Below, piece by piece: positions 32,502 through 63,920 of a stretch of DNA of 64,000 nucleotides. Origin of the DNA: a virus. A model generated the notes under the pieces. It worked only from the letters and a program-made list of their open reading frames with translations. It did not search any database and had not been told where the DNA came from. Location: IMG/VR virus record IMGVR_UViG_3300029432_000352; one strand, 5' to 3'. The first letter of the stretch is position 1. Each line of letters opens with the position of its first letter. The translations under genes and the position numbers were made by a program.

Positions 32502-32870
32502 TTACTTTAAAATATATGTGCCGTAAGGTATATCCATATTAATATCCTTTTCATCAATTTCCGAGAATTTTTCTCGCAAAATCATTGCAACTTGTTGTTC
32601 ATCACAATCTGCAATAGTTTGATTATAGAATTCTTGATGGTTTTCTTCATACGCCGAGAACCCTTCATTAAGGACTTCACTTAACGGCACAAAGAAACCA
32701 ACATATTCTAAATGACAATACATATTATCATATTCAGAGGCATATAAATATCCCCAAAAATGAACATATTTAAAGTTACCTATTTTTTCAATATCGAACA
32801 TTGTTCTATTTAACATTTTTGCTATTGACATAATCTTTTCTCCTTTACCAAGTGATTGTTCCTGCAACAT
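32502..32870 (-). CDS. hypothetical protein (122 aa)
   Basis: ORF. Confidence 0.45.
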   Translation of the reverse strand: MLQEQSLGKGEKIMSIAKMLNRTMFDIEKIGNFKYVHFWGYLYASEYDNMYCHLEYVGFFVPLSEVLNEGFSAYEENHQEFYNQTIADCDEQQVAMILREKFSEIDEKDINMDIPYGTYILK

Positions 32871-33978
32871 CGAAATCTTTCCATTTATAATATAGTATTT
32901 TTGCTATATTTTCTTCAAGATCAAGCAATTGCATTGATGACATACCTTTTTGCTGTGCTGCTGACATAACACCGGCAATACTTAGGTATATATCATCCAT
33001 ATAACAACCACTGCCATTAGAAAAACGTTCAATTTCTTCTACTGCATCTGTAGCTATTCGTTTACCAATACCGGCTTTTTTACAAAAGCCAATCATAGCA
33101 TTAACCGGATGTTCAATGTAACAATTAGACATTGCTCCCATTGTCTTTTCCATATCAATAAACTTAGAGAAAATGGTATCTATTTCTTTTTCGTAGTTTT
33201 CAATACCGACTTTATTCCCTGTTCCAAGTTTATGAGCTACTTTTATACCGGAATTGATACGGAAGTAAGTACCATTCATTTTAAATAGCGGTATAGCAGT
33301 CGCAGCGTATTTACCAACATCAGATGAAATAAATCTTATTGCAGGCATAAAGTTTTTGCCATGAAGTCTTTTTGTATGCTTTTGTACACATTTATCATAC
33401 GCTTCAAGCAAATCGTCTTGGGCTTCAGGTAATTCCCATAATGCTGATGTATAGGTGTAGTTATTTTCTGCCGATACAAATTTTAAGTTGCCAAATTTAT
33501 CATTTAATGCCCTTTCTGTAATATCAACTAATTTTGATATAGGCATTATTTCGTATAAATCCGATAAACAAGCACATACTTTTTCACCTCGTAAAAGTAG
33601 TAGTGAATCACCCTTTGCTACAGTGAAACACTTATTTAGTACTTCTGCAAACAGATATTGAGGCATTCTTGTAAGAGCAGCACCTTTAATCTTAGCTGTT
33701 TCTAAGATACTATCAAGTGCAGTATCTCGTACTAAGTATGAGTTTTTTCCGTATTTAAGGACAAATCCGGTATTGTTACTTGTATCAATAGCAGACTCTA
33801 AAGATACATTGCATTCTTGTGCAATTTCCGGAGATTCAATCTCTTCAAATGATTTTAGTGTTAATACACTTGAATCAATTTTCGGTATCCATGTTGAATT
33901 TGTATCAACATTTTTTATCTCCTCTTTGAATTCATCAAAATCCACAAAAACTCTGTTATAATTATCATTATTTTTCAT
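32845..33978 (-). CDS. hypothetical protein (377 aa)
   Basis: ORF with AGGAGGAATTTTATT RBS. Confidence 0.5.
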   Translation of the reverse strand: MKNNDNYNRVFVDFDEFKEEIKNVDTNSTWIPKIDSSVLTLKSFEEIESPEIAQECNVSLESAIDTSNNTGFVLKYGKNSYLVRDTALDSILETAKIKGAALTRMPQYLFAEVLNKCFTVAKGDSLLLLRGEKVCACLSDLYEIMPISKLVDITERALNDKFGNLKFVSAENNYTYTSALWELPEAQDDLLEAYDKCVQKHTKRLHGKNFMPAIRFISSDVGKYAATAIPLFKMNGTYFRINSGIKVAHKLGTGNKVGIENYEKEIDTIFSKFIDMEKTMGAMSNCYIEHPVNAMIGFCKKAGIGKRIATDAVEEIERFSNGSGCYMDDIYLSIAGVMSAAQQKGMSSMQLLDLEENIAKILYYKWKDFDVAGTITW

Positions 33979-34013
33979 AATAAAATTCCTCCTAAAAAAT
34001 TAAAATTGTTTCT

Positions 34014-34172
34014 TAATTCCTGTAGTCCCATTCCACATCAGAATTTTTCAAAACTGACTCAAGGAAACTGTTAACTGCCTCTTCAACATCACATTCTAAA
34101 GGAATAGGAATAGACATTTCGTATAGCACGTTATCAAAAATCACAACTGTTATATATCTATAATTGCTCATT
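34014..34172 (-). CDS. small hypothetical protein (52 aa), not in ORF track
   Basis: AGGTGGAG RBS 7 nt before ATG 34172; fills 210-nt gap. Confidence 0.3.
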
Positions 34173-34187
34173 GTCTACTCCACCTTT

Positions 34188-34535
34188 TTACTTGATGATT
34201 GAAAAATGTACCACCGTAATGTTTAGATACACTTTTCCATTATCGGCTTTGTGAGTCTGCAATTTTCCGGTAAGTATAATTCTGCATTTATCAGAAATAC
34301 CTTCTTCCAAAAATTTTTGAGCTTGATCGCCGAACATTCGGATAGTAGCCCATAAAACGCCGTTGTTTACCGAATAATGTGTATTCATAAACATATTCAT
34401 TGCTTTAGTAGAAACAGCCATTCTGCCGTCAATATAAAGCTGATTCTGCTTAGAATTCAAAGTTCTTATTGAACTCATTGTACCTTCAATTACTGCATAT
34501 TTTTCGTTGTTGTGTACGAATGTTTGTGTAAACAT
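34188..34535 (-). CDS. ssb: single-stranded DNA-binding protein, short OB-fold form (115 aa)
   Basis: ATIRMFGDQAQKFLEEGISDKCRIILTGKLQTHKADNGKVYLNITVV matches SSB core pattern; no acidic tail. Confidence 0.55.
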   Translation of the reverse strand: MFTQTFVHNNEKYAVIEGTMSSIRTLNSKQNQLYIDGRMAVSTKAMNMFMNTHYSVNNGVLWATIRMFGDQAQKFLEEGISDKCRIILTGKLQTHKADNGKVYLNITVVHFSIIK

Positions 34536-34601
34536 TTTTTTCCCTCCTTAAAAAATTAATAATATATATATATACCGTTTGTTAAACAGTAAAAAAGAAA
34601 A

Positions 34602-34748
34602 TAAAAAAAAGAGCAACTAAGCCCGGTTAGGGTTTAATTACTCTTATAAAAAAACTTTATTAACGAAAAGAAAACAGTTTTATTATAACTATTTTCGTAA
34701 ACTTCATATCTTATATATTTATTATAACACAGTATATAATGAAGTCAA
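34602..34748 (-). promoter_or_regulatory. leader module copy a: promoter TTGACTTCA-16-TGtTATAAT, hairpin, terminator-like hairpin+U-run
   Basis: plus strand: attataaca 34721-34729, agtcaa 34743-34748; hairpin 34610-34644 preceded by A-run. Confidence 0.5.
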
Positions 34749-34752
34749 TAGA

Positions 34753-35028
34753 TTAATTTAGGAATTTGCGTTCTACGAACCATTTTCCTATGTTACAACC
34801 GGATATTGCAGCATTTCTCTCAAAGAAAAGATAACTGCATTGATTGTTCACTTGAATAGTATATCTATCCCCTTGCCCTCCTGCTTTCATTGCTGCCGCA
34901 GGACGAACATCTAATATTTTGTCAATTATGAATCTATGCCCATCTTCCCAAATAATACTTTTGGGTATCATATGTCCAATATCGTCAAAATCAACAGTAA
35001 CAGGAACATATACTTTGTATTTATTCAT
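34753..35028 (-). CDS. hypothetical protein (91 aa) distal in XRE-ImmA operon
   Basis: ORF overlapping ImmA stop. Confidence 0.45.
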   Translation of the reverse strand: MNKYKVYVPVTVDFDDIGHMIPKSIIWEDGHRFIIDKILDVRPAAAMKAGGQGDRYTIQVNNQCSYLFFERNAAISGCNIGKWFVERKFLN

Positions 35029-35572
35029 AATAGCCGCCTCCTAAATCACGTTTAAGAAATGTATTCTTTGTATTTATAGGTGAAACTAATTTATATCCTT
35101 TCTGTTTTAAGATTTTAAACTTAAAATCTAATAATTCTACCGGAACATTTAATTTAGATGCCACCTGAAAGAAAGAATAATTTTCATTTAGATATTCTAA
35201 GACTACATCATCATCTAAAAGCATTTCAGCAGCAAAAATATTCGCTTCATATTCCAAAGTTGATACTTCATCAAATAGTTGAAACTCATGGAATAGATGT
35301 GAAGTAGCATTTTTATGCAAAATAGCATGTCCTAATTCGTGAGCTAATACAATATTTTGTATTAATTCCGGTAAATCAGTATTAATCGTAATGGTTTTAA
35401 TCTTACTGTGAGTCAGAAAAAAGCCTTTACAAGCATTTTCGGTTTTGCCCATACCAGAATACATCAGTATAATACTTAAATCACGGCATAGTTCTTTTAA
35501 ATTTCTTACATCATATGATTTTTTTATACTGTCTACAATATCGGAAATTGTTAAAATACTTAATTTCACCAT
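35021..35572 (-). CDS. ImmA/IrrE-family zinc metallopeptidase (183 aa)
   Basis: HEXXH VLAHELGHAILH; immediately downstream of XRE repressor. Confidence 0.7.
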   Translation of the reverse strand: MVKLSILTISDIVDSIKKSYDVRNLKELCRDLSIILMYSGMGKTENACKGFFLTHSKIKTITINTDLPELIQNIVLAHELGHAILHKNATSHLFHEFQLFDEVSTLEYEANIFAAEMLLDDDVVLEYLNENYSFFQVASKLNVPVELLDFKFKILKQKGYKLVSPINTKNTFLKRDLGGGYYE

Positions 35573-35574
35573 AG

Positions 35575-36003
35575 TTATTTATTCCCTTTTCCGTATTTTT
35601 CTTTAGCAGCATTTTTACAAGCAAAATATGCTTCTGTAACTGCCTGAAAATATGCATCCTTTGTTTCTTCAGAAATAGAACCACCGGCAAATAAAGCTCT
35701 ATTTGCATTTAATAATTCGGTAATTTCTTTTTCACCGTTTAAGCCATACTTATCAAAGGCTTGTTCTTTATATCCGGCAATATCTTGATTGTATTGTGGA
35801 TTGTCTATTTCATCTATGTCTAAATACTCGTATGAGACGTCTAACGCTTTTGCCATTTTATGAATTGCCGATGCTCTCGGAATAGAAGTGCCATTTTCAT
35901 ATTTTATAATAGAACGTTTTGAAATACCTATCATCTCACCTAATTGTTCTTGACTTAAATTTTTGCTAAGTCTTTCTTTTCTCAATTTTTCTGCAAACTT
36001 CAT
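35575..36003 (-). CDS. XRE-family (Cro/C1-type) HTH repressor, ImmR-like (142 aa)
   Basis: LSQEQLGEMIGISKRSIIKYENG HTH. Confidence 0.75.
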   Translation of the reverse strand: MKFAEKLRKERLSKNLSQEQLGEMIGISKRSIIKYENGTSIPRASAIHKMAKALDVSYEYLDIDEIDNPQYNQDIAGYKEQAFDKYGLNGEKEITELLNANRALFAGGSISEETKDAYFQAVTEAYFACKNAAKEKYGKGNK

Positions 36004-36024: not shown

Positions 36025-36129
36025 GAACTTTATTTCACTTTTCGCTTGACAAAGTTCACTTTGTATGATATATTCTTGGTGAACTTTATTTCACTTTATC
36101 ACATTTAACTTCACTTGTCAAGTGAAGTT
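36025..36129. promoter_or_regulatory. divergent control region: 17-bp direct repeats gaactttatttcacttt (36025-36041, 36081-36097), promoter TTGACA-17-TATATT (36046-36074, plus), perfect 23-bp palindrome AACTTCACTTGTCAAGTGAAGTT (36107-36129)
   Basis: all seen directly; palindrome contains TTGACA on minus strand, i.e. overlaps -35 of the XRE promoter. Confidence 0.55.
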
Positions 36130-36150: not shown

Positions 36151-37389
36151 ATGGACAGAGTAATCTTGCATAGCGATATGAATAGTTTTTATGCTTCAGT
36201 TGAAATTATGTTAAATCCTGAATTAAGAAACAAACCTGTTGCCGTTGGTGGTAGTACAGAAGAACGACACGGTATTATTCTGACTAAAAATCAGATTGCG
36301 AAGAAATATGGCATTAAAACAGGTATGGTTAATTGGGAAGCAAAACTACTATGCCCCGATTTAGTTATTATCACACCACATTATGAACAGTATATCAAAT
36401 ATTCAAAAATGGCACGAGAAATATACAGTAGATATACAGATAAAATTGAACCGTTTGGTATGGATGAATGTTGGCTTGATATGACTGAAAGTACAGAATT
36501 GTTCGGAAATGGCTTTGATATTGCCAATAATATTAGAAAAACAATTAAGTCAGAGTTAGGTTTAACAGTTAGTATAGGTGTATCTTTTAATAAGATATTT
36601 GCCAAATTAGGTTCAGATATGAAAAAGCCTGATGCTATAACTGTTATAAACAGAGAAAATTATAAAGATAAAGTATGGAACTTGCCTGTCGAAGATTTAT
36701 TCTATGTTGGTCCGGTAACAAAACGTAAACTTAATTCTATAGGTGTTCAAACTATCGGTAATTTAGCCAAATTTCCTGTGAATATTCTTAAAGATAAATT
36801 AGGCAAGAATGGAATTATGTTAAGTGCATATGCTAATGGAGCAGATACTTCACCTGTTATGCCACAAGATTTTGAATCACAAATAAAATCTATTGGACAT
36901 GGTTTAACATTTGTTAGAGATTTAAAAGATAATAATGATGCTTGGCAGGTAATATTTGAACTATCTCAAAATATTGGCAAAAAGCTCCGTAAACATCATT
37001 TACTGTGTGGTGGTATACAATTATCTATCCGAACATCTAATCTGTGGTATAAGCAATGGCAGAGCCTTATAGATGGTAACAGTAGAAGTGTACGAACAAT
37101 AGCCCATACCACTCAAAACTTGTTAGAAACACATTTTAATTGGAATGATACTATTCGGTCATTAACGGTACGAGCAATATATCTTGTTCCTGATAATATT
37201 CCCTATCAAAGAAGTTTATTTGTTGATGATGAAAAAAATGAGAATACAGAAAAATTAGAAAGGACCGTTGAAGTTTTAAGAAATAGATTCGGTCCGAATA
37301 CTATAACATATGCTTCTTTGCTTAATAATGATAAGATACCAAATATTCGCTTGGAAGAAATGATTATGCCGAAACTATTGTCAAGATAA
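36151..37389 (+). CDS. Y-family DNA polymerase (DinB/UmuC-like, 412 aa)
   Basis: N-terminal ILHSDMNSFYASVE...KPVAVGG motif. Confidence 0.8.
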   Translation: MDRVILHSDMNSFYASVEIMLNPELRNKPVAVGGSTEERHGIILTKNQIAKKYGIKTGMVNWEAKLLCPDLVIITPHYEQYIKYSKMAREIYSRYTDKIEPFGMDECWLDMTESTELFGNGFDIANNIRKTIKSELGLTVSIGVSFNKIFAKLGSDMKKPDAITVINRENYKDKVWNLPVEDLFYVGPVTKRKLNSIGVQTIGNLAKFPVNILKDKLGKNGIMLSAYANGADTSPVMPQDFESQIKSIGHGLTFVRDLKDNNDAWQVIFELSQNIGKKLRKHHLLCGGIQLSIRTSNLWYKQWQSLIDGNSRSVRTIAHTTQNLLETHFNWNDTIRSLTVRAIYLVPDNIPYQRSLFVDDEKNENTEKLERTVEVLRNRFGPNTITYASLLNNDKIPNIRLEEMIMPKLLSR

Positions 37390-37424: not shown

Positions 37425-38765
37425 TTATAATGATAAACAAAAATTACCTTCTTCGTTAATTTTGAATTTTATCGTCTTTATGTATTTGTCTATAAAATTC
37501 TGTCGTTCATTCTCGGTTGCATTAATGCGACACTTTTTATATAATTGATCAACGAATAATCTACTGTTTAATTCACTCCAATTACCTGTTATATTAAACT
37601 TATCTAATTCTTTCTGTAATGCATCTTTCAGTGCCGCATTATATATTTGAGAAATATTAAATGTCGAAAAATCATCAACCGAACAATAGTATATACGGTT
37701 TTCCCTAAGTGTTTCTTTTATATTTTCCCCACACTTTGAGGATTCAATCATTACCAAAAAATTAGCTGTCGGCAATGATGAAATAAGTCCCCAAAAATCA
37801 GAATCACTGGAAAATAAGATAAACGAATCAACATGGTTTTCGTAAAACTCTTTACATACTCCGGCAGTCAATTTAATGTCCACCAAAGATTTTGCATAAG
37901 TTACTCTTTCAACATTAATATGTTCTGTTTCAATATCAGTGAATTGCTTTAATAATTTCCAAGCAAATGTAGTATTTTTATCGTCATATAATATGATTTT
38001 ACTGATTTTACTCAATTCATTCGGATTTAATCCTTTTAATACAGAATATAATTTATATACATCTGCGTTTTCACAATCAACAACAATAATTGATGAATTG
38101 CTGTTATCAATAAAATTATATATATTTTGTTTTATTCCGTCATTTGCATCATATATTTTTGAATTATCGTCAAATACATCATTATGTAATTGATAGAGAA
38201 GATTAAGTAATTTCTTATCATTCATAAGAATATTACCGTATTCACCTTGATTCCAATGAATATACATTTGGAATGGATAATTGTTTAAATTATTTTGAAA
38301 TTTTGCACCTTCTTCTTTTAAATATTTTTGAGCTATTGCTTCACCTCCTAAAGTTTTAGGAATAATGAATAAGTCTTTTATGTATTCCCATTTTACCCAT
38401 TCCGGGAATAAATTTTTACAATCATTAATATGCTCGTTTATTAAAATGCCGATTTTGTATAGATATTTGTCAGCTGAACAATTTGATTGCATTACTTTAA
38501 TATCATGTTCCAATAACCATGTTATTTCATCATAATTAAAATAGTCTATGGTATTAATATTTTTCATATTATATTGTATTTCTTTTGATATATATTTATA
38601 ATGCAAAAATAATGTTGTTCTAATACGATTTAAGTATCGTATTTTTAGAGCATTCTCATTTTCAAAAAGTATATCACATTCATTATCAAAATGATTATCT
38701 AATGTAAATTTATCAATTCCAATTAAGAATGCTAAAATTGCTGAAATTTTTTTCTTTAGTAACAT
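37425..38765 (-). CDS. protein with C-terminal NYN/LabA-like (PIN-related) domain (446 aa from ATG 38765)
   Basis: IIVVDCENADV...ILFSSDSDFWGLISSL match NYN acidic motifs; AAGGGAG RBS. Confidence 0.45.
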   Translation of the reverse strand: MLLKKKISAILAFLIGIDKFTLDNHFDNECDILFENENALKIRYLNRIRTTLFLHYKYISKEIQYNMKNINTIDYFNYDEITWLLEHDIKVMQSNCSADKYLYKIGILINEHINDCKNLFPEWVKWEYIKDLFIIPKTLGGEAIAQKYLKEEGAKFQNNLNNYPFQMYIHWNQGEYGNILMNDKKLLNLLYQLHNDVFDDNSKIYDANDGIKQNIYNFIDNSNSSIIVVDCENADVYKLYSVLKGLNPNELSKISKIILYDDKNTTFAWKLLKQFTDIETEHINVERVTYAKSLVDIKLTAGVCKEFYENHVDSFILFSSDSDFWGLISSLPTANFLVMIESSKCGENIKETLRENRIYYCSVDDFSTFNISQIYNAALKDALQKELDKFNITGNWSELNSRLFVDQLYKKCRINATENERQNFIDKYIKTIKFKINEEGNFCLSL

Positions 38766-38831
38766 TGACTTTCTCCCTTCTAAATTTATTATGTTATTAT
38801 ATATTATACAATGTTTTACAAATTTTTTCAA

Positions 38832-38869
38832 TAAAAAAAACCACATACACTAATAATTAGTGTATGTGG
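38832..38869 (-). terminator. rho-independent terminator (12-bp perfect stem ccacatacacta + U8)
   Basis: seen directly downstream of 38878..39375. Confidence 0.65.
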
Positions 38870-43514: not shown

Positions 43515-44567
43515 TTATATCTTATATATTAGCCCATATACACCGTTACCATAATTCTTATATTGGTCCTTATGTTCATATACAGTGGCTCTTATTCTCT
43601 CTCTGTAATGAGGATTTTTCTTAGCTTTAGGATGTTCTTTAAGAAAATCGGCTAAGTCGGATAATTTTGCCGAACCGCCTAATTCTTCAAGTGACATTCT
43701 AATAAGATGATGCCAAGTTAATGCTTTACTGTCACATTCTTTCATAGAGATTTGTCTGCTTATTCTTTTTGAAAAATCAATTATGAACGGATCGTTCTTA
43801 TGGAAAACCAACATATATTCTGTTACAATCGGAATAAATGGTTTTTTATAAGTTCTACTGTCCGAAACACAATTAAACTGTCCTTTAACAATAAAACTTT
43901 CAAAATCTCCAATTTTCATCATATCATGTTGCATAGAATGAAATTCGCCCTTAGAACGAATATCACCGACTAAAATGGCTAATCTGCCATCTTTTCTTAA
44001 TGCCATATATAGTTTTTGAATTACAAAGTTTAATTTTTCAATAAAATCATTATAATTTTCACATCGTGATAAATCGTCAGGATTAGCTTTGCCCCACATA
44101 TTACCACTATATTTTATAATATCGTGATAAGGCGGATGAAAGAAAATTAAGTCGGCACTATCTTCTACATCATTTTTTAAAGCATTCCAATTTCCGATAC
44201 CGCATTTAGGATTCGGGTTTAAATCGTATAAAACCGAATTTATACCTAATTTATCAGCAACTCCCTTTGAAGTGCCAGAACCACTCATTGGATCAAGCAG
44301 TGTAAATTGAGAAACATCTTTATCATAGTATCTTTTTGAAGCAAGTACATATTTTGTAATAGCTTCAATCACTTTAGGCGAACAATTACCTCTCCATTGA
44401 TTATTACCTCCATCTCCACGATCAGGAAAAGCCATAAACGAAGTTAATTCTTTCCCTACTCGATGTCTTAAATTTTCAGTGCCTAAATTTTGAACAATAT
44501 TTTGCCATTCTTCACCGAATTCTTGTTTCAGTAAATTTATTGCTCTATTAAAATTATAATTTGTCAT
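43515..44567 (-). CDS. DNA methyltransferase, orphan (350 aa; motif I DPMSGSGT, motif IV-like HPPY)
   Basis: SAM-binding and catalytic tetrapeptide motifs; no adjacent restriction endonuclease. Confidence 0.55.
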   Translation of the reverse strand: MTNYNFNRAINLLKQEFGEEWQNIVQNLGTENLRHRVGKELTSFMAFPDRGDGGNNQWRGNCSPKVIEAITKYVLASKRYYDKDVSQFTLLDPMSGSGTSKGVADKLGINSVLYDLNPNPKCGIGNWNALKNDVEDSADLIFFHPPYHDIIKYSGNMWGKANPDDLSRCENYNDFIEKLNFVIQKLYMALRKDGRLAILVGDIRSKGEFHSMQHDMMKIGDFESFIVKGQFNCVSDSRTYKKPFIPIVTEYMLVFHKNDPFIIDFSKRISRQISMKECDSKALTWHHLIRMSLEELGGSAKLSDLADFLKEHPKAKKNPHYRERIRATVYEHKDQYKNYGNGVYGLIYKI

Positions 44568-45701: not shown

Positions 45702-45764
45702 AAAAATTCCGGATACTTTTTTGTATATAAACTGTCAATAATGGCAGATAATAAAATTAAATCT

Positions 45765-48696: not shown

Positions 48697-48761
48697 ACTG
48701 AATTCCTCCTTAAAAATAATTATGTTTAATATATAAACAGCTTAATAGCTGTAACAAAAAT

Positions 48762-48904: not shown

Positions 48905-48961
48905 TACCTGTTTATCTTTAGCCAATGAATATACCTCATAAATAATCTCTTTTTCCAACTA

Positions 48962-51097: not shown

Positions 51098-51162
51098 AAT
51101 TCTTTTTCCTCCGTTTCATTTAACTTAATATATATAAACAGCTTAATAGCTGTAACAAAAAT

Positions 51163-51298
51163 AATAAAAAAGAGTGATTAAGCCCTATTTGGGTTTAATC
51201 ACTCATAAAAAACTATATTAATTAAAAAGGAAACATTAAAATGTTCCATAAACTTCATATTTATAATATAATTATATCATATCGTAAATTGAAGTCAA
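51163..51298 (-). promoter_or_regulatory. leader module copy f (TTGACTTCA-16-TGaTATAAT; hairpin 51171-51204 + U-run)
   Basis: plus: attatatca 51271-51279, agtcaa 51293-51298. Confidence 0.55.
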
Positions 51299-51347
51299 CA
51301 ATATATTTATTGCTCTTATTTATTTGACTTGCTTTCATTGAATAAAA

Positions 51348-54521: not shown

Positions 54522-55457
54522 TTAAACTCTCACGCCAACACATTCATAAAATATATCAGCATCAAAATATGGTAACGACTTAATAAATTCTTTATCATCA
54601 TCGCTAACATCTTCATCCCACCATTTTTGCTTGTCAGCTTCAACTATTATTGTTTTGATATATCCGCCAATAGTTTCACATTCAGGGTGTTCCATAATTT
54701 CTTCCTCACTCATTTTGTTTTTGGAAATAAAATCCGAATATTCATATGATTGAGGGCAATCCAATAAAATCTCGTTAAATCTAACTATTGACTTATCATT
54801 AAAATCAAATTCTGTTTCATGATTAAACATTCTCACTTTAGGTGAATTTGTATTACAAATTCCACTGTTATAATTTCCACTGTTATAATCTCCAGAATTA
54901 TAATTTCCGCTATTATAATCTCCACTATTATGACAACCAGAATTATAATCTCCATTGTTACAATTTCCGGTGTTATAATCTCCTGTGTTATAATTTCCGC
55001 TGTTATGATAACCGGAATTATAATCTCCACTGTTACAATTTCCGGTGTTATAATCTCCGGTGTTATCATTTCCGGTGTTATCATTTCCGGTGTTATAATT
55101 TCCGCTGTTATGATAACCGGAATTATAAGTTCCACTGTTACACTTTCCGGAATTTCCTTTTCCAGTATTGCACATATCCAACACTTCGCTCCACTTCAAT
55201 TCTTTTAAGATAACTATCTTATTTGTGCAACACTTAGAGTTGGTATCATCAAAATGAATTTCTCCTATTGCCTCAATTTCAGCCACCTTATTGTTTGGAT
55301 CAAATGAATAATAATTAAAGCAATCTACTAATTTTTCACAAAAATGAAAACCCACCTTACAACACTTTGGACTTTCTGCTATCTCATAAGTCTTTCCAAT
55401 TTCATATTGATAACCTCTGCATGTCCAATCTGAATTAAATACTTTATAACCTTTCAT
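54522..55457 (-). CDS. pentapeptide-like repeat protein: ~27 tandem 5-aa units (N-[ST]-G-[DN]-[YCD]) after a Cys-containing N-terminal domain (311 aa from ATG 55457)
   Basis: GGAGGAATTTAAA RBS; repeats GNYNSGDYNSGYHNSGNYNTGNDNTG... seen directly. Confidence 0.5.
   Translation of the reverse strand: MKGYKVFNSDWTCRGYQYEIGKTYEIAESPKCCKVGFHFCEKLVDCFNYYSFDPNNKVAEIEAIGEIHFDDTNSKCCTNKIVILKELKWSEVLDMCNTGKGNSGKCNSGTYNSGYHNSGNYNTGNDNTGNDNTGDYNTGNCNSGDYNSGYHNSGNYNTGDYNTGNCNNGDYNSGCHNSGDYNSGNYNSGDYNSGNYNSGICNTNSPKVRMFNHETEFDFNDKSIVRFNEILLDCPQSYEYSDFISKNKMSEEEIMEHPECETIGGYIKTIIVEADKQKWWDEDVSDDDKEFIKSLPYFDADIFYECVGVRV
54843..55170. repeat. tandem 15-bp coding repeats (pentapeptide units) producing spurious ORFs in other frames
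   Basis: seen directly; ORFs 54833..55135(-), 54842..55213(+), 54930..55208(+) are artifacts. Confidence 0.7.
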
Positions 55458-55520
55458 TTTAAATTCCTCCTTAAAATTTTTAATAATATATATAATCCGA
55501 AAAAGCGGTAAAATAGAAAT

Positions 55521-55849: not shown

Positions 55850-56155
55850 TCAAACTTTCTTATTATATCCTTTCCAAAAGTTCATTCGTAGTTCCATTGA
55901 AACTGGTTTATTTATAAGTTCGTCCATTTCATCAACGTCCAACATATCCATTAGATTACCAATTTCCTGATTTAATTCATCGGATATATAAGGCATAGTT
56001 CGTTTAATCATTGTTGTGATACTTCTCATAGGAAACATATCACATTGTCCTTGAAATGGATCGTTAAATCCTTTTAGCTGAGTTAATTGGGCGTATACAC
56101 TACCCATCGCCTCTAAATTTTCTACTGTATACATTATTATTTCACACCTTTCCAT
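55850..56155 (-). CDS. hypothetical protein (101 aa)
   Basis: ORF. Confidence 0.45.
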   Translation of the reverse strand: MERCEIIMYTVENLEAMGSVYAQLTQLKGFNDPFQGQCDMFPMRSITTMIKRTMPYISDELNQEIGNLMDMLDVDEMDELINKPVSMELRMNFWKGYNKKV

Positions 56156-57158
56156 TTTCTTTTAAGAATACATTTGTAGTTACAACATTATCGTTTACAT
56201 CATATCCTTTTATGAATATTGGTGCAAGCCATTTTAAAATTAATTTTCTATGACTTGAACCCCTCTCTCCTTTCCAGTAATGATGCCAATGTCCACGCCG
56301 TGTATGTGGGCGTTTCGGAGAACCATGTGCTTCCACTCCCGAATTATTATAAATAATATGAGATTTAACCTTCTTTTGTTTTATTTGGCGAATAATATTT
56401 CCGGTTTGAGTGCCACAATTCCATTTTTGAATTTCTCTATATTTATCTTTTATGTATTCTTTTTTTTGGGGCTTACGAGTTATGTATTTTTGTCGTTCAT
56501 CTTCAGTAATTTCGCTGTTCTGTGCACAGATATATAACACAAGTTGCAATTTTGATGTTATTAAGTTTGTTACAAAATCAATATAATCTTTATCGACAAA
56601 ATTCTTTGATGAATTCTTTTCTACTTCTTGTAACATTCGGTCAATTCCATCTTTGATTGTACCATTTTCTATAAGATGTAAAGAAATAGGCATAACTGAA
56701 TAGTCATTATTTATAAACAAAAATCGCAATTCCAATTCTCCGTTGTTAGTATCTGATTCAAAGTAGACGAAGAATCCATTGTACTCATCATCGTTTACTG
56801 CTATGTAAATACAGGGATATGGAAGATTACTTAAAACTTCGATTGGTATAATTAAATCTTCACTTCCTTGTTCAGTAAGAACATCTTCCATATCTTTATC
56901 AAAGCTGAAGATTTGTTTATACAATCTCCATGTAGCAGTTGCAACAATTATATTGGCTTCTGATATTATGCTCAAATTAATATTGTCATTTCCGCCACTT
57001 GCAATAGCAATCCCTACCCCTATCGGTATATAGCAACGAGCATCCCAATTCACTTCTTTGCCGTTCATTTTTCTCATATCTTCTACTTGTTTCCAAGCAT
57101 TCGGATATTTCTTATTGACTTTTTGAGTTAAAATTAATGGTGCAATTTTTTCTTCCAT
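56142..57158 (-). CDS. hypothetical protein with basic His/Arg-rich C-terminal segment (338 aa)
   Basis: ORF. Confidence 0.5.
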   Translation of the reverse strand: MEEKIAPLILTQKVNKKYPNAWKQVEDMRKMNGKEVNWDARCYIPIGVGIAIASGGNDNINLSIISEANIIVATATWRLYKQIFSFDKDMEDVLTEQGSEDLIIPIEVLSNLPYPCIYIAVNDDEYNGFFVYFESDTNNGELELRFLFINNDYSVMPISLHLIENGTIKDGIDRMLQEVEKNSSKNFVDKDYIDFVTNLITSKLQLVLYICAQNSEITEDERQKYITRKPQKKEYIKDKYREIQKWNCGTQTGNIIRQIKQKKVKSHIIYNNSGVEAHGSPKRPHTRRGHWHHYWKGERGSSHRKLILKWLAPIFIKGYDVNDNVVTTNVFLKENGKV

Positions 57159-61049: not shown

Positions 61050-61058
61050 TCTAAAATT

Positions 61059-61631
61059 TCAATTCAAAACTCTAACCTTAGCAATATATCTTATCCTTAT
61101 TTTATTTTGTAAAACATCGGTAACAAATATATTTGCAACTTCTTTTAAATCGGCTTCTGTACCATTATTGTCAATAACTATATCATAATCATAATTAAAA
61201 ACTCTGTCATCAGCCAAATTTGACGTAATATGTGGTATATTATCACGTTTAACAAGGATTGTTATTGCATTAAATTCTTGTACTGCTCTTTTTATTTCCT
61301 CCGGTTCTCGAATATGTAAAAAGAGTATATCTTCATCAGTCGAACTTTTAAAGGCATCAACTTTTCCTCTCATAGCTGCAAATGGTAAATCATTATATTC
61401 AGAAACAATCAATTTTAAATCACATAAAAATTTTCTGTCTCTTTCTGTTTTTGAACCTGTCCAACCTATGTCTTTTGCAATTTTTTTTATTTCATCTACT
61501 GATGAATAATTAATGACTTGTTTATTTGTTAAACGGCAATAAAATTCACTAACAAATTGTACGAATGTATCTTTGCCTACTCCACCACTACCGTTAATTA
61601 CAAATATTTTCTTACTATCAATCGTTGTCAT
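61059..61631 (-). CDS. P-loop nucleotide kinase-like protein (dNMP kinase-type, 190 aa)
   Basis: N-terminal Walker A FVINGSGGVGKDT; size typical of phage/plasmid nucleotide kinases. Confidence 0.45.
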   Translation of the reverse strand: MTTIDSKKIFVINGSGGVGKDTFVQFVSEFYCRLTNKQVINYSSVDEIKKIAKDIGWTGSKTERDRKFLCDLKLIVSEYNDLPFAAMRGKVDAFKSSTDEDILFLHIREPEEIKRAVQEFNAITILVKRDNIPHITSNLADDRVFNYDYDIVIDNNGTEADLKEVANIFVTDVLQNKIRIRYIAKVRVLN

Positions 61632-62271: not shown

Positions 62272-62296
62272 TAAAAATTTATATATTCATATTAAA

Positions 62297-62524
62297 TTAC
62301 TCTATTTCAACTTTTAAATAAATGGATTTACCATTTGTGCATTTAATTCTTATAGCATTTTTACTATGTTTTATTCTTAGCACACTTTTGACACAAGGTT
62401 CATAATGCTCTAATCCGTCTCCATAAGCGAATAAAGCATATAAATTATCCAGAACATCATTTTTGTCAAAATCAAAATCTCCTTTTTTAAAAGATTTATA
62501 TTGCTTATTTGTTAAAATCACCAT
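62297..62524 (-). CDS. hypothetical protein (75 aa)
   Basis: ORF. Confidence 0.5.
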   Translation of the reverse strand: MVILTNKQYKSFKKGDFDFDKNDVLDNLYALFAYGDGLEHYEPCVKSVLRIKHSKNAIRIKCTNGKSIYLKVEIE

Positions 62525-62550
62525 AATCTTTCTCCTCCTTCCTTGTTTAT

Positions 62551-62748
62551 TTAATCGTAAACAAATACTGCTCTTCCACCGAGTTTTTTTATTTCATTTG
62601 TAATATGTTCTATTTGATCAAGCATAACATCCATAGAACAAATACAAGCTCCTTCAGAAATATTACTATATATACTCCTACAATCGCTTATAGTAATTCT
62701 ACAAATATTATCATCTACCTTAATTATTCGGCATTTTATTGTTTCCAT
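62551..62748 (-). CDS. hypothetical Cys-rich protein (65 aa from ATG 62748)
   Basis: GGAGGAATTC RBS before ATG 62748; listed N-terminal extension is translated module sequence. Confidence 0.45.
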   Translation of the reverse strand: METIKCRIIKVDDNICRITISDCRSIYSNISEGACICSMDVMLDQIEHITNEIKKLGGRAVFVYD

Positions 62749-62814
62749 TAGAATTCCTCCTTTTAAAATTGCATTGTTTAATTTATATAAACAGTTCATA
62801 CTGTAAAATAGAAA

Positions 62815-62953
62815 ATAAAAAAAGAGTGATTAATCTATAAATAGGTTAAATCACTCTTTAAAAACTAAATTATTTATGTAGAAAACAGCTAATGCTATTT
62901 TCGTAAACTTCATATCTATAATTATATTATAGCATATCATAGAACAAAGTCAA
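62815..62953 (-). promoter_or_regulatory. leader module copy i (TTGACTTTG-16-TGcTATAAT; hairpin 62823-62857 + U-run)
   Basis: plus: attatagca 62916-62924, agtcaa 62948-62953. Confidence 0.5.
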
Positions 62954-62964
62954 CGCATATTTTT

Positions 62965-63630
62965 TTATATTAATAAATATTCATTTACTGCTTTAACTGT
63001 TTCTTTAAAGAATTTTTCTGTTATGAAATAATCATATTCTCCTAACAATGAAATGTGTAATATTTCTTTGTCATTATAAAGCGTATTTTCTATCATATCC
63101 CAAATATCATCATATATAAAGGTTTTGATATAATATTCGGATACACTATCTTCAGATACCCATTTTTCATTTCTTCGCTTTTCATATTCTTTTATCATCT
63201 CGTCATTTGACATATATCTATACTTATCAGCGATACTTTTGAAAAGCGGAATATCATTCCAATAATCATAATCATAATCTTGATCACAAGAATTCTGAAA
63301 TTGTAATGTACTATCAAATAAATGATATACTGATGTAGGTACAGCATATATACCTAATAGTTTTTTGTCTGCAAAGTAGAACCAACGATATTTGAATACG
63401 TGATTTTTAGCCCAAATTTCCGTCTTTCTTTCAAGTTCTTCTGCATTTTCAAGTGTTTTCAAGTCTATAAAACTTGTATCTTGATTTTCTCGCCAAACCG
63501 GACTGCATAGGCAATTTTCTTCAGCTATATTCGCATAATTTTTGCGACATTCTTGTTTATATTGCAATAAAAACAAATATAGGTCTGCCGGTTCAATGAT
63601 TTTAAAACTTATCGTACATCTGTAACTCAT
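62965..63630 (-). CDS. hypothetical protein (221 aa)
   Basis: ORF. Confidence 0.5.
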   Translation of the reverse strand: MSYRCTISFKIIEPADLYLFLLQYKQECRKNYANIAEENCLCSPVWRENQDTSFIDLKTLENAEELERKTEIWAKNHVFKYRWFYFADKKLLGIYAVPTSVYHLFDSTLQFQNSCDQDYDYDYWNDIPLFKSIADKYRYMSNDEMIKEYEKRRNEKWVSEDSVSEYYIKTFIYDDIWDMIENTLYNDKEILHISLLGEYDYFITEKFFKETVKAVNEYLLI

Positions 63631-63656
63631 AATTATATGCTCCTTTCATATTATCC

Positions 63657-63920
63657 TTATTCATAATATTTATATGTACAAGTATCATTAAACTCAGTAT
63701 CGAGAATCAATTTATTTTCTTCTTCATTCCAAAAAAGACTTGTACGCCCGACTTCGTATCCACTCTCAATTATAACTGCTCTCATTGCTTCAAGAGCTAA
63801 ATCAACCATAAATTCATATGGTTCTTTACCGTTTGGAATGGATATTGGTGTTTCAAAATCGCCGTTTGAATAAGTAATGGCTATCTGACCTCTTTTAACA
63901 TAGTCAACACCATACTGCAA
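63657..63920 (-). CDS. hypothetical protein (87 aa)
   Basis: ORF. Confidence 0.5.
   Translation of the reverse strand: MQYGVDYVKRGQIAITYSNGDFETPISIPNGKEPYEFMVDLALEAMRAVIIESGYEVGRTSLFWNEEENKLILDTEFNDTCTYKYYE

What the first reader, a model, noticed from the sequence alone, without database searches (positions are those of the whole stretch)
32502..63920. Right half resembles a plasmid leading region / anti-defence and establishment island
All genes run in one orientation and are mostly under 200 aa. They include a tail-less SSB, a Y-family polymerase under SOS-like repressor control, two orphan DNA methyltransferases (43515..44567, 51348..53141) with no restriction partner, a pentapeptide-repeat-like candidate DNA mimic, a YopX gene, DUF551 paralogs, a NYN-domain nuclease-like protein, a nucleotide kinase, and several paralog pairs (40664/41484; 40367/49241; 49559/50169). 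Conjugative-plasmid leading regions are known to carry SSB, anti-restriction genes, orphan methylases and anti-SOS genes in a single orientation with dedicated early promoters. SPbeta-like phage early regions share YopX/DUF551 content. Many of the ~30 uncharacterized small ORFs here are therefore candidate anti-defence or establishment factors.
Basis: inference. Interest (0 to 1): 0.65.

Follow-up and report, generated by a model that had tools for sequence, protein, structure and literature searches.

The report
Establishment-type regulon of a giant ICE
The right half of the window is the last 31 kb of a ~76-kb run of about 20 same-direction operons in a very large conjugative element integrated in a human-gut Clostridium-like bacterium. 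Each operon starts with the same promoter-plus-terminator cassette, and the block mixes anti-defence-type genes with DNA-handling genes, so it resembles a plasmid 'establishment' programme but is far larger and has its own, undescribed control element.

Summary
61 of 62 ORFs in 32502-63920 are on the minus strand, with a median length of 110 aa. The Y-family polymerase, XRE+ImmA pair, two lone methyltransferases, pentapeptide protein, NYN, YopX and all three paralog pairs are confirmed. The SSB call is moderately supported and DUF551 is not. The replicon is not a plasmid but an integrative conjugative element of at least ~130 kb (VirB4, PrgI, VirD4-type coupling protein, two VirB2-like pilins, CHAP hydrolase, serine recombinase) inserted in a ZIP-transporter gene. 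No phage structural genes were seen, and no relaxase or oriT was found, so 'leading region' in the strict sense is untested. New here: the array is the downstream end of a ~76-kb regulon of about 20 operons. Each is headed by a conserved ~200-nt module: a near-consensus extended -10 promoter bracketed by ACTTCA/TGAAGT, then a structured leader ending in a covarying intrinsic terminator. The same half-sites form a palindrome at the XRE/ImmA promoter, which points to an ImmR-like master repressor. Gene-content differences between related elements break at the modules. The closest precedents are the pLS20/p576 establishment regulons and leading-region anti-defence islands. I rate this a new variant of a known kind.

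The parts
62772..62958 (-). Regulatory module (promoter TTGACT-N16-TGnTATAAT, TATGAAGT box, hairpin 1, terminator hairpin 2 + U-run) heading the operon 62748->~58550
   Evidence: nhmmer E 2.9e-36; promoter scan 11/12 with TG; CM hit 80.8 bits
55481..55663 (-). Regulatory module heading the operon with the DUF7666/pentapeptide protein
   Evidence: 95.8 bits
53425..53608 (-). Regulatory module heading the small gene (true start ~53401) and the DUF4942 methyltransferase
   Evidence: sequence read; leader RNA z-score -7.0
51120..51300 (-). Regulatory module heading operon 51097->48962 (includes paralogs 50169/49559 and 49241)
   Evidence: sequence read (100.9 bits)
48729..48910 (-). Regulatory module heading operon 48696->46377 (DUF4241-like, DUF3841, DpnD/PcfM)
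45717..45911 (-). Regulatory module (divergent hairpin sequences, same architecture) heading 45701->44631
   Evidence: 42 bits
43153..43335 (-). Regulatory module with a weakened -10 (TATACT) heading 43202->41484 (ProQ_C-like, YopX, paralog 41484)
   Evidence: E 3.2e-14; 40.4 bits
41286..41472 (-). Regulatory module heading operon 41182->37425 (paralogs 40664 and 40367, small ORFs, NYN protein)
34562..34753 (-). Last (most downstream) regulatory module, heading the SSB-like operon 34535->32502
   Evidence: (E 1.3e-36)
34188..34535 (-). SSB/PriB-like OB-fold protein, 115 aa, no acidic tail
   Evidence: Pfam SSB E 0.012; low-confidence AF2 model whose top-50 PDB fold hits are all SSB/PriB
32845..33978 (-). 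377-aa protein of a widespread uncharacterised family (conserved W30, Y142, S219-D220, H249)
   Evidence: 727 representative clusters at E<=1e-3; no Pfam or PDB match for members or profile; not related to the Vescimonas DUF932 protein
35021..36003 (-). XRE repressor (35575-36003) followed by an ImmA/IrrE metalloprotease (35021-35572): an ImmR/ImmA-type regulatory pair and candidate master regulator
   Evidence: Pfam HTH_3 2.5e-16, Peptidase_M78 1.5e-15; PHROG repressor and metallo-protease hits
36108..36128 (.). Palindrome ACTTCACTTGACAAGTGAAGT centred on a TTGACA box in the XRE/polymerase divergent promoter region. It uses the same half-sites (ACTTCA/TGAAGT) that bracket every module promoter
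   Evidence: sequence read; the paired motif occurs 7 times against 0.25 expected
36151..37389 (+). Y-family (UmuC/DinB-like) DNA polymerase, the only plus-strand gene in the array
   Evidence: Pfam IMS 5.5e-47, IMS_C 3.1e-14; PHROG DNA polymerase 3.9e-83
37425..38846 (-). NYN-domain protein, 473 aa
   Evidence: Pfam NYN 5.7e-7
43515..44567 (-). Lone N6/N4 DNA methyltransferase
   Evidence: Pfam N6_N4_Mtase 1.5e-7; PHROG DNA methyltransferase 2.5e-8
46377..46805 (-). DpnD/PcfM-like protein (family named after a pCF10 conjugative-plasmid gene)
   Evidence: Pfam 2.6e-7
51348..53141 (-). Lone methyltransferase with a C-terminal DUF4942 domain (YdiA-type, a leading-region hallmark family)
   Evidence: Pfam DUF4942 7.8e-37; Samuel 2024 supplementary family 24
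54522..55460 (-). DUF7666 + pentapeptide-type repeat protein (16 x 15-nt periodic repeat)
   Evidence: Pfam 6.2e-34 and 8.4e-21; repeat family D1; PHROG 14105 1e-103
56142..57158 (-). AcrVA2-like protein, 338 aa
   Evidence: precomputed PF26125; phmmer to PDB 7ci1 AcrVA2 E 3.2e-7, shared KRPHxRRGHWHxYW motif
61059..61631 (-). P-loop deoxynucleoside-monophosphate-kinase-like protein
   Evidence: PHROG 139 1.5e-9; Pfam DNMK 0.0019
7091..10452 (-). Context outside the finding: VirB4-type ATPase (7091-9625) and PrgI-like protein (9625-10452) of the element's type IV secretion system
   Evidence: Pfam P-loop_TraG 6.6e-21, PrgI 0.0031; 47% identical to and syntenic with Vescimonas plasmid pMM35_02

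Best explanation
The region is the downstream 31 kb of a ~76-kb, ~20-operon 'early/establishment' regulon of a giant (at least ~130 kb) integrative conjugative element in a spore-forming gut Clostridium-like host.

Shown:
- Every operon begins with the same ~200-nt cassette. It is a near-consensus extended -10 sigma-A-type promoter whose -35 box (TTGACTTCA) and early transcribed region (TATGAAGT) form an invariant inverted pair. This is followed by a ~100-nt leader with a variable hairpin and then a strong, covarying hairpin plus U-run (an intrinsic terminator), and then the RBS and start codon.
- The same half-sites form a tight palindrome over the promoter of the element's XRE repressor / ImmA protease pair.

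Inferred mechanism:
- The XRE (ImmR-like) repressor holds all ~20 promoters shut while the element sits in the chromosome.
- The promoters fire together in two situations. One is when ImmA inactivates the repressor in a donor. The other is when the element arrives in a recipient that has no repressor ('zygotic induction', as shown for p576).
- The leader terminator stops read-through from the upstream unit and damps leaky transcription. Full expression then needs either partial read-through or an element-encoded antitermination function.
- The products act early on incoming or excised DNA. They include an SSB-like protein, two lone methyltransferases, an AcrVA2-like protein, a pentapeptide-repeat protein, a translesion polymerase and dozens of small unknowns. 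Further upstream are an exonuclease, helicase, topoisomerase III, NrdD and nucleotide enzymes.
- Because the cassettes are near-identical, they also serve as recombination joints that swap whole operons between related elements.
For: Conjugative and integrated:
- VirB4 and PrgI, syntenic with a Vescimonas plasmid T4SS.
- VirD4-type T4CP, CHAP hydrolase, two VirB2-like pilins and a ParM-like protein at the other end.
- Serine recombinase next to spoU-dprA-topA, splitting a ZIP gene.
- No capsid, terminase, portal or tail hit in any Pfam/PHROG scan.

Module:
- 9 copies in the window and about 20 along the composite element, all in gene orientation. None occurs in either T4SS cluster or in the Vescimonas plasmid.
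- TTGACTTCA occurs 9 times against 0.85 expected; TATGAAGTTT occurs 7 times against 0.69.
- All 24 distinct leaders fold as hairpin 1 plus a terminator hairpin abutting U6-8. In the copies correctly assigned that hairpin has 11-17 bp (-12 to -18 kcal/mol) and lies ~100-109 nt from the -10.
- Leader RNA z-scores are -3.5 to -7.0.
- Covariation: 97.6% of cells paired, 11 of 13 pairs with double changes, 77 double-change cells against 16.5 in shuffles (0/500), slid controls 41-56%.

Repressor link:
- Palindrome at 36108-36128; paired motif 7 observed against 0.25 expected.

Mosaicism at modules.

Content:
- DUF4942 methyltransferase is leading-region family 24 in Samuel 2024, and umuC marks island boundaries there.
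- AcrVA2-like; SSB-like.

Precedent:
- Multi-operon establishment regulons with conserved upstream regulatory sequences, a strong promoter plus repressor operators in p576, and a read-through-blocking structured element in pLS20.
Against: - No relaxase or oriT was found, so neither entry order nor the transferred strand is known.
- The repressor-operator link rests only on a shared hexamer pair. One further paired site lies inside immA and may be chance.
- A strong terminator between each promoter and its genes predicts that most transcripts stop after ~100 nt. No antiterminator was identified, and no alternative (anti-terminator) RNA fold was evident.
- Much of the regulon (NrdD, RecD2, YqaJ, Topo III, HD, kinase) is replication or nucleotide machinery, not anti-defence. 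It could equally serve donor-side replication after excision.
- Most small ORFs have no homolog of known function, so 'anti-defence' is a guess for them.
- The composite map beyond the window comes from related metagenomic contigs, not from the window's own replicon.
- The covariation alignment was fitted to the model structure.
Confidence: 0.55

Rival explanations
1. Classical leading region. On this view oriT lies immediately downstream of the array, in the 26.1-32.5 kb gap between the array and the VirB4 cluster. The plus strand is nicked there and enters 5' first, so the SSB operon and then the rest of the array are the first DNA in the recipient and can be read from the transferred strand.
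For: - The topology is F-like. The array and the T4SS genes point the same way with a gap between them, and the transferred strand must be the template, so leading genes should point toward oriT (inference from established conjugation polarity).
- The SSB-like operon is the unit nearest that gap.
- A UmuC-type polymerase sits near one boundary, as in Samuel 2024 islands.
- The DUF4942 methyltransferase is a hallmark leading-region family.
Against: - No relaxase was found in the window or in ~130 kb of related sequence.
- The gap shows no nic-type inverted repeat, only a (GTGTACGT)n tract and a bidirectional terminator.
- As ssDNA the promoters fold at -4.6 to -7 kcal/mol (z -0.06 to -1.5) with the -10 in the loop, which is not Frpo-like.
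- The co-oriented block is ~76 kb, well beyond described leading regions.
Confidence: 0.2
2. Donor-side induced programme. On this view the regulon is switched on after ImmA-mediated derepression in the host that already carries the element. It mainly supports excision, autonomous replication and maintenance of a very large ICE (helicase, topoisomerase, SSB, exonuclease, NrdD, kinase). Anti-defence-like genes are incidental cargo, and nothing is specific to establishment in recipients.
For: - The ImmR/ImmA-type pair works this way in ICEBs1 (established knowledge of that system).
- A large share of upstream operons encode DNA replication, recombination and nucleotide enzymes.
- A ParM/Alp-like protein suggests an extrachromosomal phase.
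- The promoters are double-strand promoters.
Against: - Methyltransferases without partners, an AcrVA2-like protein and operon-level hypervariability between near-identical elements fit an arms race with recipient defences better than housekeeping replication does.
- A repressor-controlled regulon is automatically derepressed on entry into a naive cell, so the two readings are not mutually exclusive.
Confidence: 0.15
3. Early region of a very large SPbeta-like temperate phage or phage-like element. On this view a master repressor binds a repeated operator in many early promoters, and the T4SS-like genes are unrelated or co-resident.
For: - YopX, DUF1064, a YqaJ exonuclease, dNMP kinase, intein- or HNH-interrupted NrdD, a large serine recombinase, size above 100 kb, and a one-directional array of small genes.
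- SPbeta has a repeated operator (SPBRE) at ~10 promoters bound by MrpR.
- Several array proteins hit PHROG families.
- The VirB4-like protein also hits a PHROG labelled terminase.
Against: - No capsid, portal, tail or lysis gene in ~130 kb.
- VirB4, PrgI, VirD4, VirB2-like pilins and a CHAP hydrolase are all co-oriented within the same integrated unit bounded by the recombinase.
- The VirB4 homologs lie overwhelmingly on conjugative plasmids (2,361 of 3,443 records).
- No megablast match to 50,697 phage records.
- The module signature occurs in only two IMG/VR contigs, both fragments of this element.
- Most small ORFs have no PHROG hit.
Confidence: 0.05

Closest known systems
Establishment regulons of pLS20-family conjugative plasmids (EGeRS1 of pLS20, EGeRS2 of p576; Val-Calvo et al. 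2021, PMC8708921)
   Same: - A Gram-positive conjugative element.
- Variable, mostly unknown 'establishment' genes spread over several co-located operons.
- Each operon is preceded by a copy of one conserved regulatory sequence.
- In p576 that sequence is a strong sigma-A promoter flanked by operators of one repressor, giving transient expression in recipients. In pLS20 it is a structured element that blocks read-through in one orientation only.
- Gene content is mosaic between related plasmids.
   Different: - About 20 units over ~76 kb here, against 4-5 units over a fifth of a ~65-kb plasmid.
- One cassette combines both features, promoter-with-operators and a read-through-blocking terminator.
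- No sequence relation to EGeRS2: the dual motif TTATCCCnnTTATCCC is absent.
- The candidate repressor is an XRE/ImmA pair, not an RHH protein.
- The host element is an ICE.
- The regulon also carries replication and nucleotide genes.
Anti-defence islands in plasmid/ICE leading regions (Samuel et al. 2024, PMC11541004)
   Same: - A uniform gene orientation.
- SSB, lone methyltransferases (including the DUF4942/YdiA type), anti-CRISPR-type genes and many small unknowns.
- A umuC-type polymerase near one boundary.
   Different: - Adjacency to oriT is not shown.
- There are no Frpo-like ssDNA promoters.
- No UmuD partner; an XRE/ImmA pair is present instead.
- The block is several-fold longer and includes replication and nucleotide genes.
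SPbeta prophage early clusters with SPBRE operators bound by the master repressor MrpR (Kohm et al. 2023, PMC10516654)
   Same: - A very large element integrated by a serine recombinase.
- Long one-directional arrays of small genes, with YopX and ribonucleotide reductase carrying selfish inserts.
- One short operator repeated at ~10 promoters, so that a single repressor silences the whole programme.
   Different: - No virion genes; a complete-looking T4SS instead.
- The repeated unit is a ~200-nt promoter-leader-terminator cassette, not a 15-bp site.
- No MrpR-type (tyrosine-recombinase-fold) repressor was identified.
ICEBs1 ImmR/ImmA switch
   Same: An XRE-family repressor gene immediately followed by an M78 metalloprotease gene inside an ICE. 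In ICEBs1 the protease cleaves the repressor to derepress element genes (established knowledge).
   Different: - ICEBs1 has one regulated promoter (Pxis). Here there would be ~20 dispersed targets.
- Cleavage and binding are untested.
- The pair sits inside the array next to a translesion polymerase, not next to int/xis.
Promoter-proximal terminators overcome by antitermination: lambda PR'-tR'/Q, Tn916 T1 insulator with canT RNA (PMC11658703), pLS20 ConAn (PMC8191782)
   Same: A strong promoter followed within ~100-200 nt by an intrinsic terminator ahead of long operons, with terminators acting as insulators in conjugative elements.
   Different: - Those systems have one such site per element. 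Here the arrangement is repeated ~20 times.
- No antiterminator protein or RNA has been identified here.
- No Rfam family matches the leader.

Membership tests
Leading region of a conjugative element (sensu Samuel et al. 2024) | Lies next to oriT on the side that enters the recipient first | tested here: inconclusive
   No relaxase domain in any scanned protein of the window or ~130 kb of relatives. No nic-like inverted repeat in the predicted gap at 26.1-32.5 kb. The far end of the element was not reached.
Leading region of a conjugative element (sensu Samuel et al. 2024) | Genes uniformly oriented so that the transferred strand is the template | tested here: inconclusive
   Uniform orientation is met (61/62 ORFs). 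Which strand is transferred is unknown.
Leading region of a conjugative element (sensu Samuel et al. 2024) | Enriched in SSB, lone methyltransferases and anti-defence genes | tested here: met
   DUF4942 methyltransferase (their family 24), N6_N4 methyltransferase, AcrVA2-like, SSB/PriB-like.
Leading region of a conjugative element (sensu Samuel et al. 2024) | Frpo/ssi-type single-strand promoters (a stable hairpin that recreates double-stranded -35 and -10 boxes) | tested here: not met
   Promoter regions folded as ssDNA on either strand give -4.6 to -7.0 kcal/mol, z -0.06 to -1.5, with the -10 in the loop.
pLS20-family establishment regulon (EGeRS) | Several operons of a conjugative element each preceded by a copy of one conserved regulatory sequence | tested here: met
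   9 copies in the window and ~20 in the composite element, confined to the array. T4SS components are present.
pLS20-family establishment regulon (EGeRS) | Sequence identity with EGeRS2 (Reg operator dual motif TTATCCCnnTTATCCC) or EGeRS1 (GC-rich 420-750 bp element) | tested here: not met
   The dual motif is absent (one 2-mismatch hit outside the array, at chance level). The modules are ~200 nt and ~20% GC. EGeRS1 sequences themselves were not available for alignment.
pLS20-family establishment regulon (EGeRS) | Transient expression in the recipient soon after transfer | not testable with these tools
   Needs mating time-course expression data.
Integrative conjugative element | Type IV secretion ATPase, coupling protein, pilin/hydrolase, plus an integrase, inside one chromosomal insertion | tested here: met
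   VirB4 and PrgI; VirD4-type T4CP, CHAP, two VirB2-like pilins; a 541-aa serine recombinase abutting a truncated ZIP gene that is intact (262 aa) in another strain. The parts outside the window come from related contigs.
Integrative conjugative element | Relaxase and oriT | tested here: not met
   None detected. The closest T4SS relative (Vescimonas pMM35_02) is also typed non-mobilizable for lack of a known relaxase, so this T4SS family may use an unrecognised one.
SPbeta-like temperate phage | Virion structural, packaging and lysis genes | tested here: not met
   No such Pfam/PHROG hit in the window or relatives. The single 'terminase' PHROG hit is the VirB4 P-loop domain.
ICEBs1-type ImmR/ImmA switch | XRE repressor gene adjacent to and co-transcribed with an M78 (ImmA/IrrE) protease gene in a mobile element | tested here: met
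   35575-36003 and 35021-35572, 2 nt apart on the same strand.
ICEBs1-type ImmR/ImmA switch | Repressor binds the regulated promoters and is cleaved by the protease | not testable with these tools
   There is only a motif argument: shared ACTTCA/TGAAGT half-sites.
AcrVA2 anti-CRISPR family | Sequence membership (PF26125) including the conserved C-terminal KRPHxRRGHWHxYW segment | tested here: met
   Precomputed PF26125 hit; PDB 7ci1 E 3.2e-7, similar length, 338 against 323 aa. Anti-Cas12a activity is not testable here.
Bacterial SSB | OB fold of the SSB/PriB type; C-terminal acidic partner-binding tail | tested here: inconclusive
   Pfam SSB E 0.012, below cutoff. The AF2 model has pLDDT 59, and all top-50 fold hits are SSB/PriB but with TM ~0.4. 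There is no acidic tail in the sequence (ends ...VVHFSIIK).

The most novel reading that the evidence does not exclude
The ~200-nt cassette is a new kind of dual-purpose genetic element. On one side it is a regulatory unit that puts ~20 dispersed operons of a giant ICE under one repressor and one (still unidentified) antitermination or attenuation step. Each unit would otherwise produce only a ~100-nt terminated leader RNA. On the other side it is a portable homology block that lets related elements exchange whole operons, in function like a cassette system for anti-defence and establishment genes. If so, the several dozen unknown small ORFs it drives would be a rich, naturally delimited catalogue of candidate anti-defence and establishment factors from a common human-gut bacterium.
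Probability: 0.3. Interest if true: 0.75.

Novelty: new variant of a known kind. Interest (0 to 1): 0.6.

Why it matters
Conjugative elements of gut Firmicutes move resistance and fitness genes, yet how they get past recipient defences is known almost only from proteobacterial plasmids and a few Bacillus plasmids. Three things make this element useful.

- **It is common.** One array protein is indexed in 1,729 blocks of the metagenome collection.
- **It marks its own early genes.** The early programme is labelled by an easily recognised cassette, so the candidate establishment and anti-defence operons can be listed without knowing their functions.
- **Natural variants already exist.** Near-identical relatives differ by whole cassette-bounded operons, which helps prioritise genes for testing.

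The promoter-then-terminator design repeated ~20 times also poses a clear, testable regulatory question: what lets RNA polymerase through? Separately, this T4SS family lacks any recognisable relaxase, which points to an undescribed DNA-processing system.

Tried and rejected
- **Megablast of 23.5 kb against phage and plasmid collections:** no match.
- **Genome-collection scan with the element's NrdD:** this was a poor choice.
- **IMG/VR walks:** only 19-kb and 30-kb fragments of the element are present. One scan was wasted on a mis-spaced pattern.
- **Cluster look-up for organism names:** mostly empty. Later calls gave 'Firmicutes bacterium AF36-3BH' and 'uncultured Clostridium sp.'.
- **Frpo-type ssDNA promoter idea:** rejected.
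- **Known RNA family for the leader:** none at gathering or relaxed thresholds.
- **Alternative anti-terminator pairing in the leader:** I looked by eye and in MFE folds and saw none that is conserved.
- **DUF932 identity for the 377-aa protein:** rejected. There is no similarity to the Vescimonas DUF932 protein, no Pfam vote among 52 family members and no PDB profile hit. Its AlphaFold model was useless (pLDDT 34).
- **Homology between the window SSB-like protein and the Vescimonas plasmid SSB:** none.
- **DnaD/HTH_36 protein against the Vescimonas HTH protein:** none.
- **oriT features at 26-27.4 kb and 32.4-32.5 kb:** none. The miRNA hits there are artefacts of a GT-rich repeat.
- **EGeRS2 operator motif:** absent.
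- **NCBIfam:** added nothing.
- **Relaxed-threshold Pfam search for a relaxase in both T4SS clusters:** none found.
- **MAFFT column-based covariation:** abandoned because hairpin registers shift. Replaced by a covariance-model alignment.
- **First hairpin script:** it mis-assigned hairpin 1 as the terminator in several copies by taking the earlier T-run. Corrected.

Full report
**1. What is in the stated interval**

The window is ~30% G+C with strongly negative GC skew across 32-64 kb. A non-overlapping ORF set for 32502-63920 has 62 ORFs. 61 are on the minus strand, the median length is 109.5 aa, 52 are shorter than 200 aa, and 88% of the region is coding.

I scanned the ORFs as concatenated chunks and mapped hits back to genes. 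Pfam gave:
- ImmA/IrrE peptidase, 35021-35572
- XRE HTH, 35575-36003
- Y-family polymerase, 36151-37389 (the one plus-strand gene)
- NYN, 37425-38846
- a partial YopX, 42212-42484
- ProQ_C-like, 42497-42898
- N6_N4 methyltransferase, 43515-44567
- DpnD/PcfM, 46377-46805
- DUF3841, 47270-47866
- methyltransferase with DUF4942, 51348-53141
- DUF7666 plus Pentapeptide_2, 54522-55544

The three paralog pairs are real. The SSB call is marginal by sequence (Pfam E 0.012). A low-confidence AlphaFold model nevertheless retrieves only SSB/PriB structures among its top 50 hits. The kinase is supported by PHROGs (1.5e-9). DUF551 is not supported (E 0.091). Most small ORFs match nothing in Pfam, PHROGs or NCBIfam.

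**2. What replicon this is**

There is no close DNA match among 50,697 phage or 72,556 plasmid records.

The left half of the window encodes a VirB4-type ATPase, a PrgI-like protein, DUF5697, DUF6100, an S1-domain protein, a sigma-70-like factor, SLH surface proteins, a NERD protein and an SNF2 helicase. The VirB4 has relatives on 3,443 plasmids, 2,361 of them typed conjugative. It is 47% identical to and syntenic with the T4SS of Vescimonas fastidiosa plasmid pMM35_02, which has PrgI-VirB4, DUF5697, DUF6100, VirD4, an S1 protein and a sigma factor in the same order. Its single PHROG 'terminase' hit covers only the P-loop region.

Exact-protein look-ups place the window's genes on human-gut metagenome contigs of up to 578 kb. 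Beyond the window's left end, relatives carry small genes, then a 541-aa serine recombinase, then spoU-dprA-topA-trmFO-gpr-spoVA, which is the chromosome of a spore former. The insertion splits a ZIP-transporter gene. That gene is 262 aa when intact, 148 aa remain next to this element, and other strains have unrelated prophages in the same gene. Source names attached to element proteins are 'Firmicutes bacterium AF36-3BH' and 'uncultured Clostridium sp.'.

I walked outward from the right end through related contigs. The same-strand arrangement continues for ~65 kb. In the direction away from the window, the genes are:
- SocA_Panacea, DUF5052, DZR and HD proteins
- NrdD, interrupted by an intein or an HNH gene
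- Topo III-like, PcfJ-like
- DUF1064, a RecD2 helicase, a YqaJ exonuclease
- VWA and NAGPA proteins, and a weakly primase-like 450-aa protein
- an S8 peptidase, an LRR protein and SLH proteins
- finally a VirD4-type coupling protein (755 aa), a CHAP hydrolase (776 aa), two VirB2-like pilins and a ParM/Alp-like protein

About 130 kb is reconstructed in total. It contains no capsid, portal, terminase, tail or lysis gene and no recognisable relaxase. The element is therefore an integrative conjugative element whose T4SS genes sit at both ends and become adjacent on circularisation. The map outside the window is a composite from relatives that are ~99% identical where they overlap the window.

**3. 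The repeated cassette**

Repeat and promoter scans showed that the larger intergenic gaps of the array hold copies of one ~200-nt sequence. Read on the coding strand, it has these parts in order:
- TTGACTTCA, which contains the -35 box
- 10 nt, then TGnTATAAT
- 11-12 nt, then (A/G)TATGAAGT
- hairpin 1
- an A/U-rich stretch with a conserved AGTT
- hairpin 2, immediately followed by U6-8
- a small third hairpin
- TTATATATAT, the RBS and ATG

The terminator-like hairpin therefore lies between the promoter and the gene it precedes.

TTGACTTCA occurs 9 times against 0.85 expected, and TATGAAGTTT 7 times against 0.69. An HMM of the window copies finds 9 copies in the window, all on the minus strand between 34.5 and 63 kb. 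Along the composite upstream region it finds about 11 more, the first just upstream of the 272-aa gene (L146:19957). It finds none in either T4SS cluster, the recombinase end or the Vescimonas plasmid. The regulon so defined is ~76 kb long. Some units are long: the YqaJ-to-Topo III operon is ~16 kb.

In IMG/VR the promoter signature occurs in only two contigs, both fragments of this element. No Rfam family matches.

Structure:
- 28 distinct variants were collected.
- All 24 that were analysed fold into hairpin 1 plus a terminator hairpin abutting the U-run.
- Where correctly assigned, hairpin 2 has 11-17 bp, -12 to -18 kcal/mol, and sits ~100-109 nt from the -10. The first script mis-assigned hairpin 1 as the terminator in several copies.
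- Leader RNAs fold far better than shuffles, z -3.5 to -7.0.
- On a covariance-model alignment of 77 hits (42 distinct), hairpin 2 is 97.6% paired. 11 of 13 pairs show changes on both sides, with 77 double-change cells against 16.5 in shuffles (0/500), and only 41-56% pairing when partners are slid. The alignment was fitted to that structure, which inflates the figures somewhat. Even so, the stems differ outright between copies (GAGUGAUUAAACCC..., GAACAGACUAA..., GAGCAAUUAUAAAUCC...).
- As single-stranded DNA the promoter part is no more stable than shuffled sequence, so it is not an Frpo-type promoter.

**4. Link to a repressor**

The region between the XRE gene and the divergent polymerase gene contains ACTTCACTTGACAAGTGAAGT, a palindrome centred on a TTGACA box. 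Its half-sites are the hexamers that bracket each module promoter. The pattern ACTTCA-N(<=45)-TGAAGT occurs 7 times in the window against 0.25 in Markov shuffles: five exact module copies, this palindrome, and one site inside immA.

This is the basis for proposing the XRE/ImmA pair as master regulator. It is an inference.

**5. Mosaicism**

BLASTN of four related arrays against the window shows whole-operon differences whose junctions fall in the modules:
- L001 joins the 62953 module to the 53604 module, so 9 kb and two operons are absent.
- L003 joins the 51298 module to the 48904 module and lacks 59.2-55.7 kb.
- L005 diverges right after the 55660 module.

**6. Comparison with known systems**

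- **Leading-region islands.** Samuel et al. 2024 define leading-region anti-defence islands by position next to oriT, uniform orientation on the transferred strand, Frpo promoters and frequent umuCD boundaries. Their supplementary table lists DUF4942 methyltransferases as family 24.
- **pLS20-family establishment regulons.** Val-Calvo et al. 2021 describe several variable operons, each behind a conserved regulatory sequence. In p576 that sequence is a strong promoter with repressor operators. In pLS20 it is a structured, orientation-specific read-through block.
- **SPbeta.** It has a 15-bp operator at ~10 promoters bound by MrpR.
- **Tn916.** It uses an insulating terminator and a cis-acting antiterminator RNA.

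The present cassette combines the p576-type and pLS20-type features in one unit and repeats it ~20 times. It has no EGeRS2 operator motif.

**7. Polarity argument (inference only)**

The transferred strand enters 5' first and must be the template for any transcription from it, so leading genes point toward oriT. The array and the VirB4 cluster point the same way with a 6-kb oppositely oriented block between them (two DnaD/HTH_36 genes, TnpB, a CuAO_N-domain protein and an SPFH protein). An F-like layout would put oriT there and make the SSB operon the first to enter.

I found nothing oriT-like there. The promoters are double-strand promoters, so early expression does not depend on this.

**8. 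Verdict**

It is right that this is a conjugative-element early/anti-defence-type array and not a phage structural module. It is wrong about the replicon type, it is unproven on oriT adjacency, and it is too narrow about content and extent.
- The most likely mechanism is a repressor-gated, terminator-insulated early regulon (confidence ~0.55).
- The cassette and the scale are, as far as the searched literature and Rfam show, undescribed.

Noticed in passing
window 16412-16519 (-): A drum RNA (Rfam RF02958, 47.4 bits, above the gathering score of 43) lies just downstream of the sigma-70-like gene 16530-17114 in the T4SS cluster. It is the only Rfam hit in the window.
   Followed up: no
window 26565-26660: About 12 copies of GTGTACGT, an alternating purine-pyrimidine tract, in the non-coding gap between the SNF2 helicase gene and the two DnaD/HTH_36 genes. 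It could be part of a replication origin or simply a microsatellite. It produces a spurious His/Thr-rich ORF and spurious miRNA hits.
   Followed up: partly
window 28909-30021 (+); also L097:3129-4313, L003:1667-2800, L112:7622-9396: IS605/IS200-family TnpB (and in places TnpA) copies are inserted at different positions in different relatives of the element, so these transposons are active within this lineage.
   Followed up: no
L002:1-3102, L001:102-3143 (just beyond the window's right end): The element's NrdD gene is polymorphic for selfish inserts. Some copies carry an intein with a LAGLIDADG endonuclease (1,079 aa), others are split by a free-standing HNH gene, and others are uninterrupted (711 aa).
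   Followed up: partly
L133-L140 (chromosomal flank of relatives), ZIP gene at locus ~7118-7906: The ZIP-transporter gene next to spoU is an integration hotspot. It is truncated at different points by this ICE (148 aa left) and by at least two unrelated prophages (153 and 195 aa left). It is intact (262 aa) in one strain.
   Followed up: partly
window 32845-33978 (-): The 377-aa protein after the SSB-like gene belongs to a large uncharacterised family: 727 clusters at 50% identity, with invariant W30, Y142, S219 and H249, and no Pfam or PDB relative.
   Followed up: yes
window 44594-44662 (-): A second promoter-then-terminator arrangement of a different sequence. A perfect TTGACA-16-TATAAT match at 44662-44635 is followed within 10 nt by a 14-bp hairpin plus T-run (44625-44594), 27 nt ahead of the N6_N4 methyltransferase start.
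   Followed up: no
window 35265-35305: An extra ACTTCA-N29-TGAAGT pair lies inside the immA coding sequence. It may be a further operator or may be chance.
   Followed up: no
window 1-1900: The window's left end differs from the relatives examined. It has a 109-aa tyrosine-recombinase fragment (1242-1571, +; Pfam 2.6e-8) and an unrelated 206-aa ORF where relatives have small genes, SocA_Panacea and the serine recombinase. This suggests a rearrangement or another insertion in the source genome.
   Followed up: no
window 10480-11766 (-); L094:26886-28130: An S1 RNA-binding-domain protein with an acidic N-terminus is a conserved member of this T4SS gene cluster, both here and in the Vescimonas plasmid. 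An RNA-binding protein in a conjugation module is unexplained, and it is one candidate for the missing antitermination factor.
   Followed up: no
L094 (Vescimonas pMM35_02) and this element: This T4SS family (PrgI-VirB4, DUF5697, DUF6100, VirD4, S1 protein, sigma factor) has no recognisable relaxase in either element, and MOB-suite types the plasmid as non-mobilizable. The DNA-processing enzyme of the family may be of an undescribed type.
   Followed up: partly
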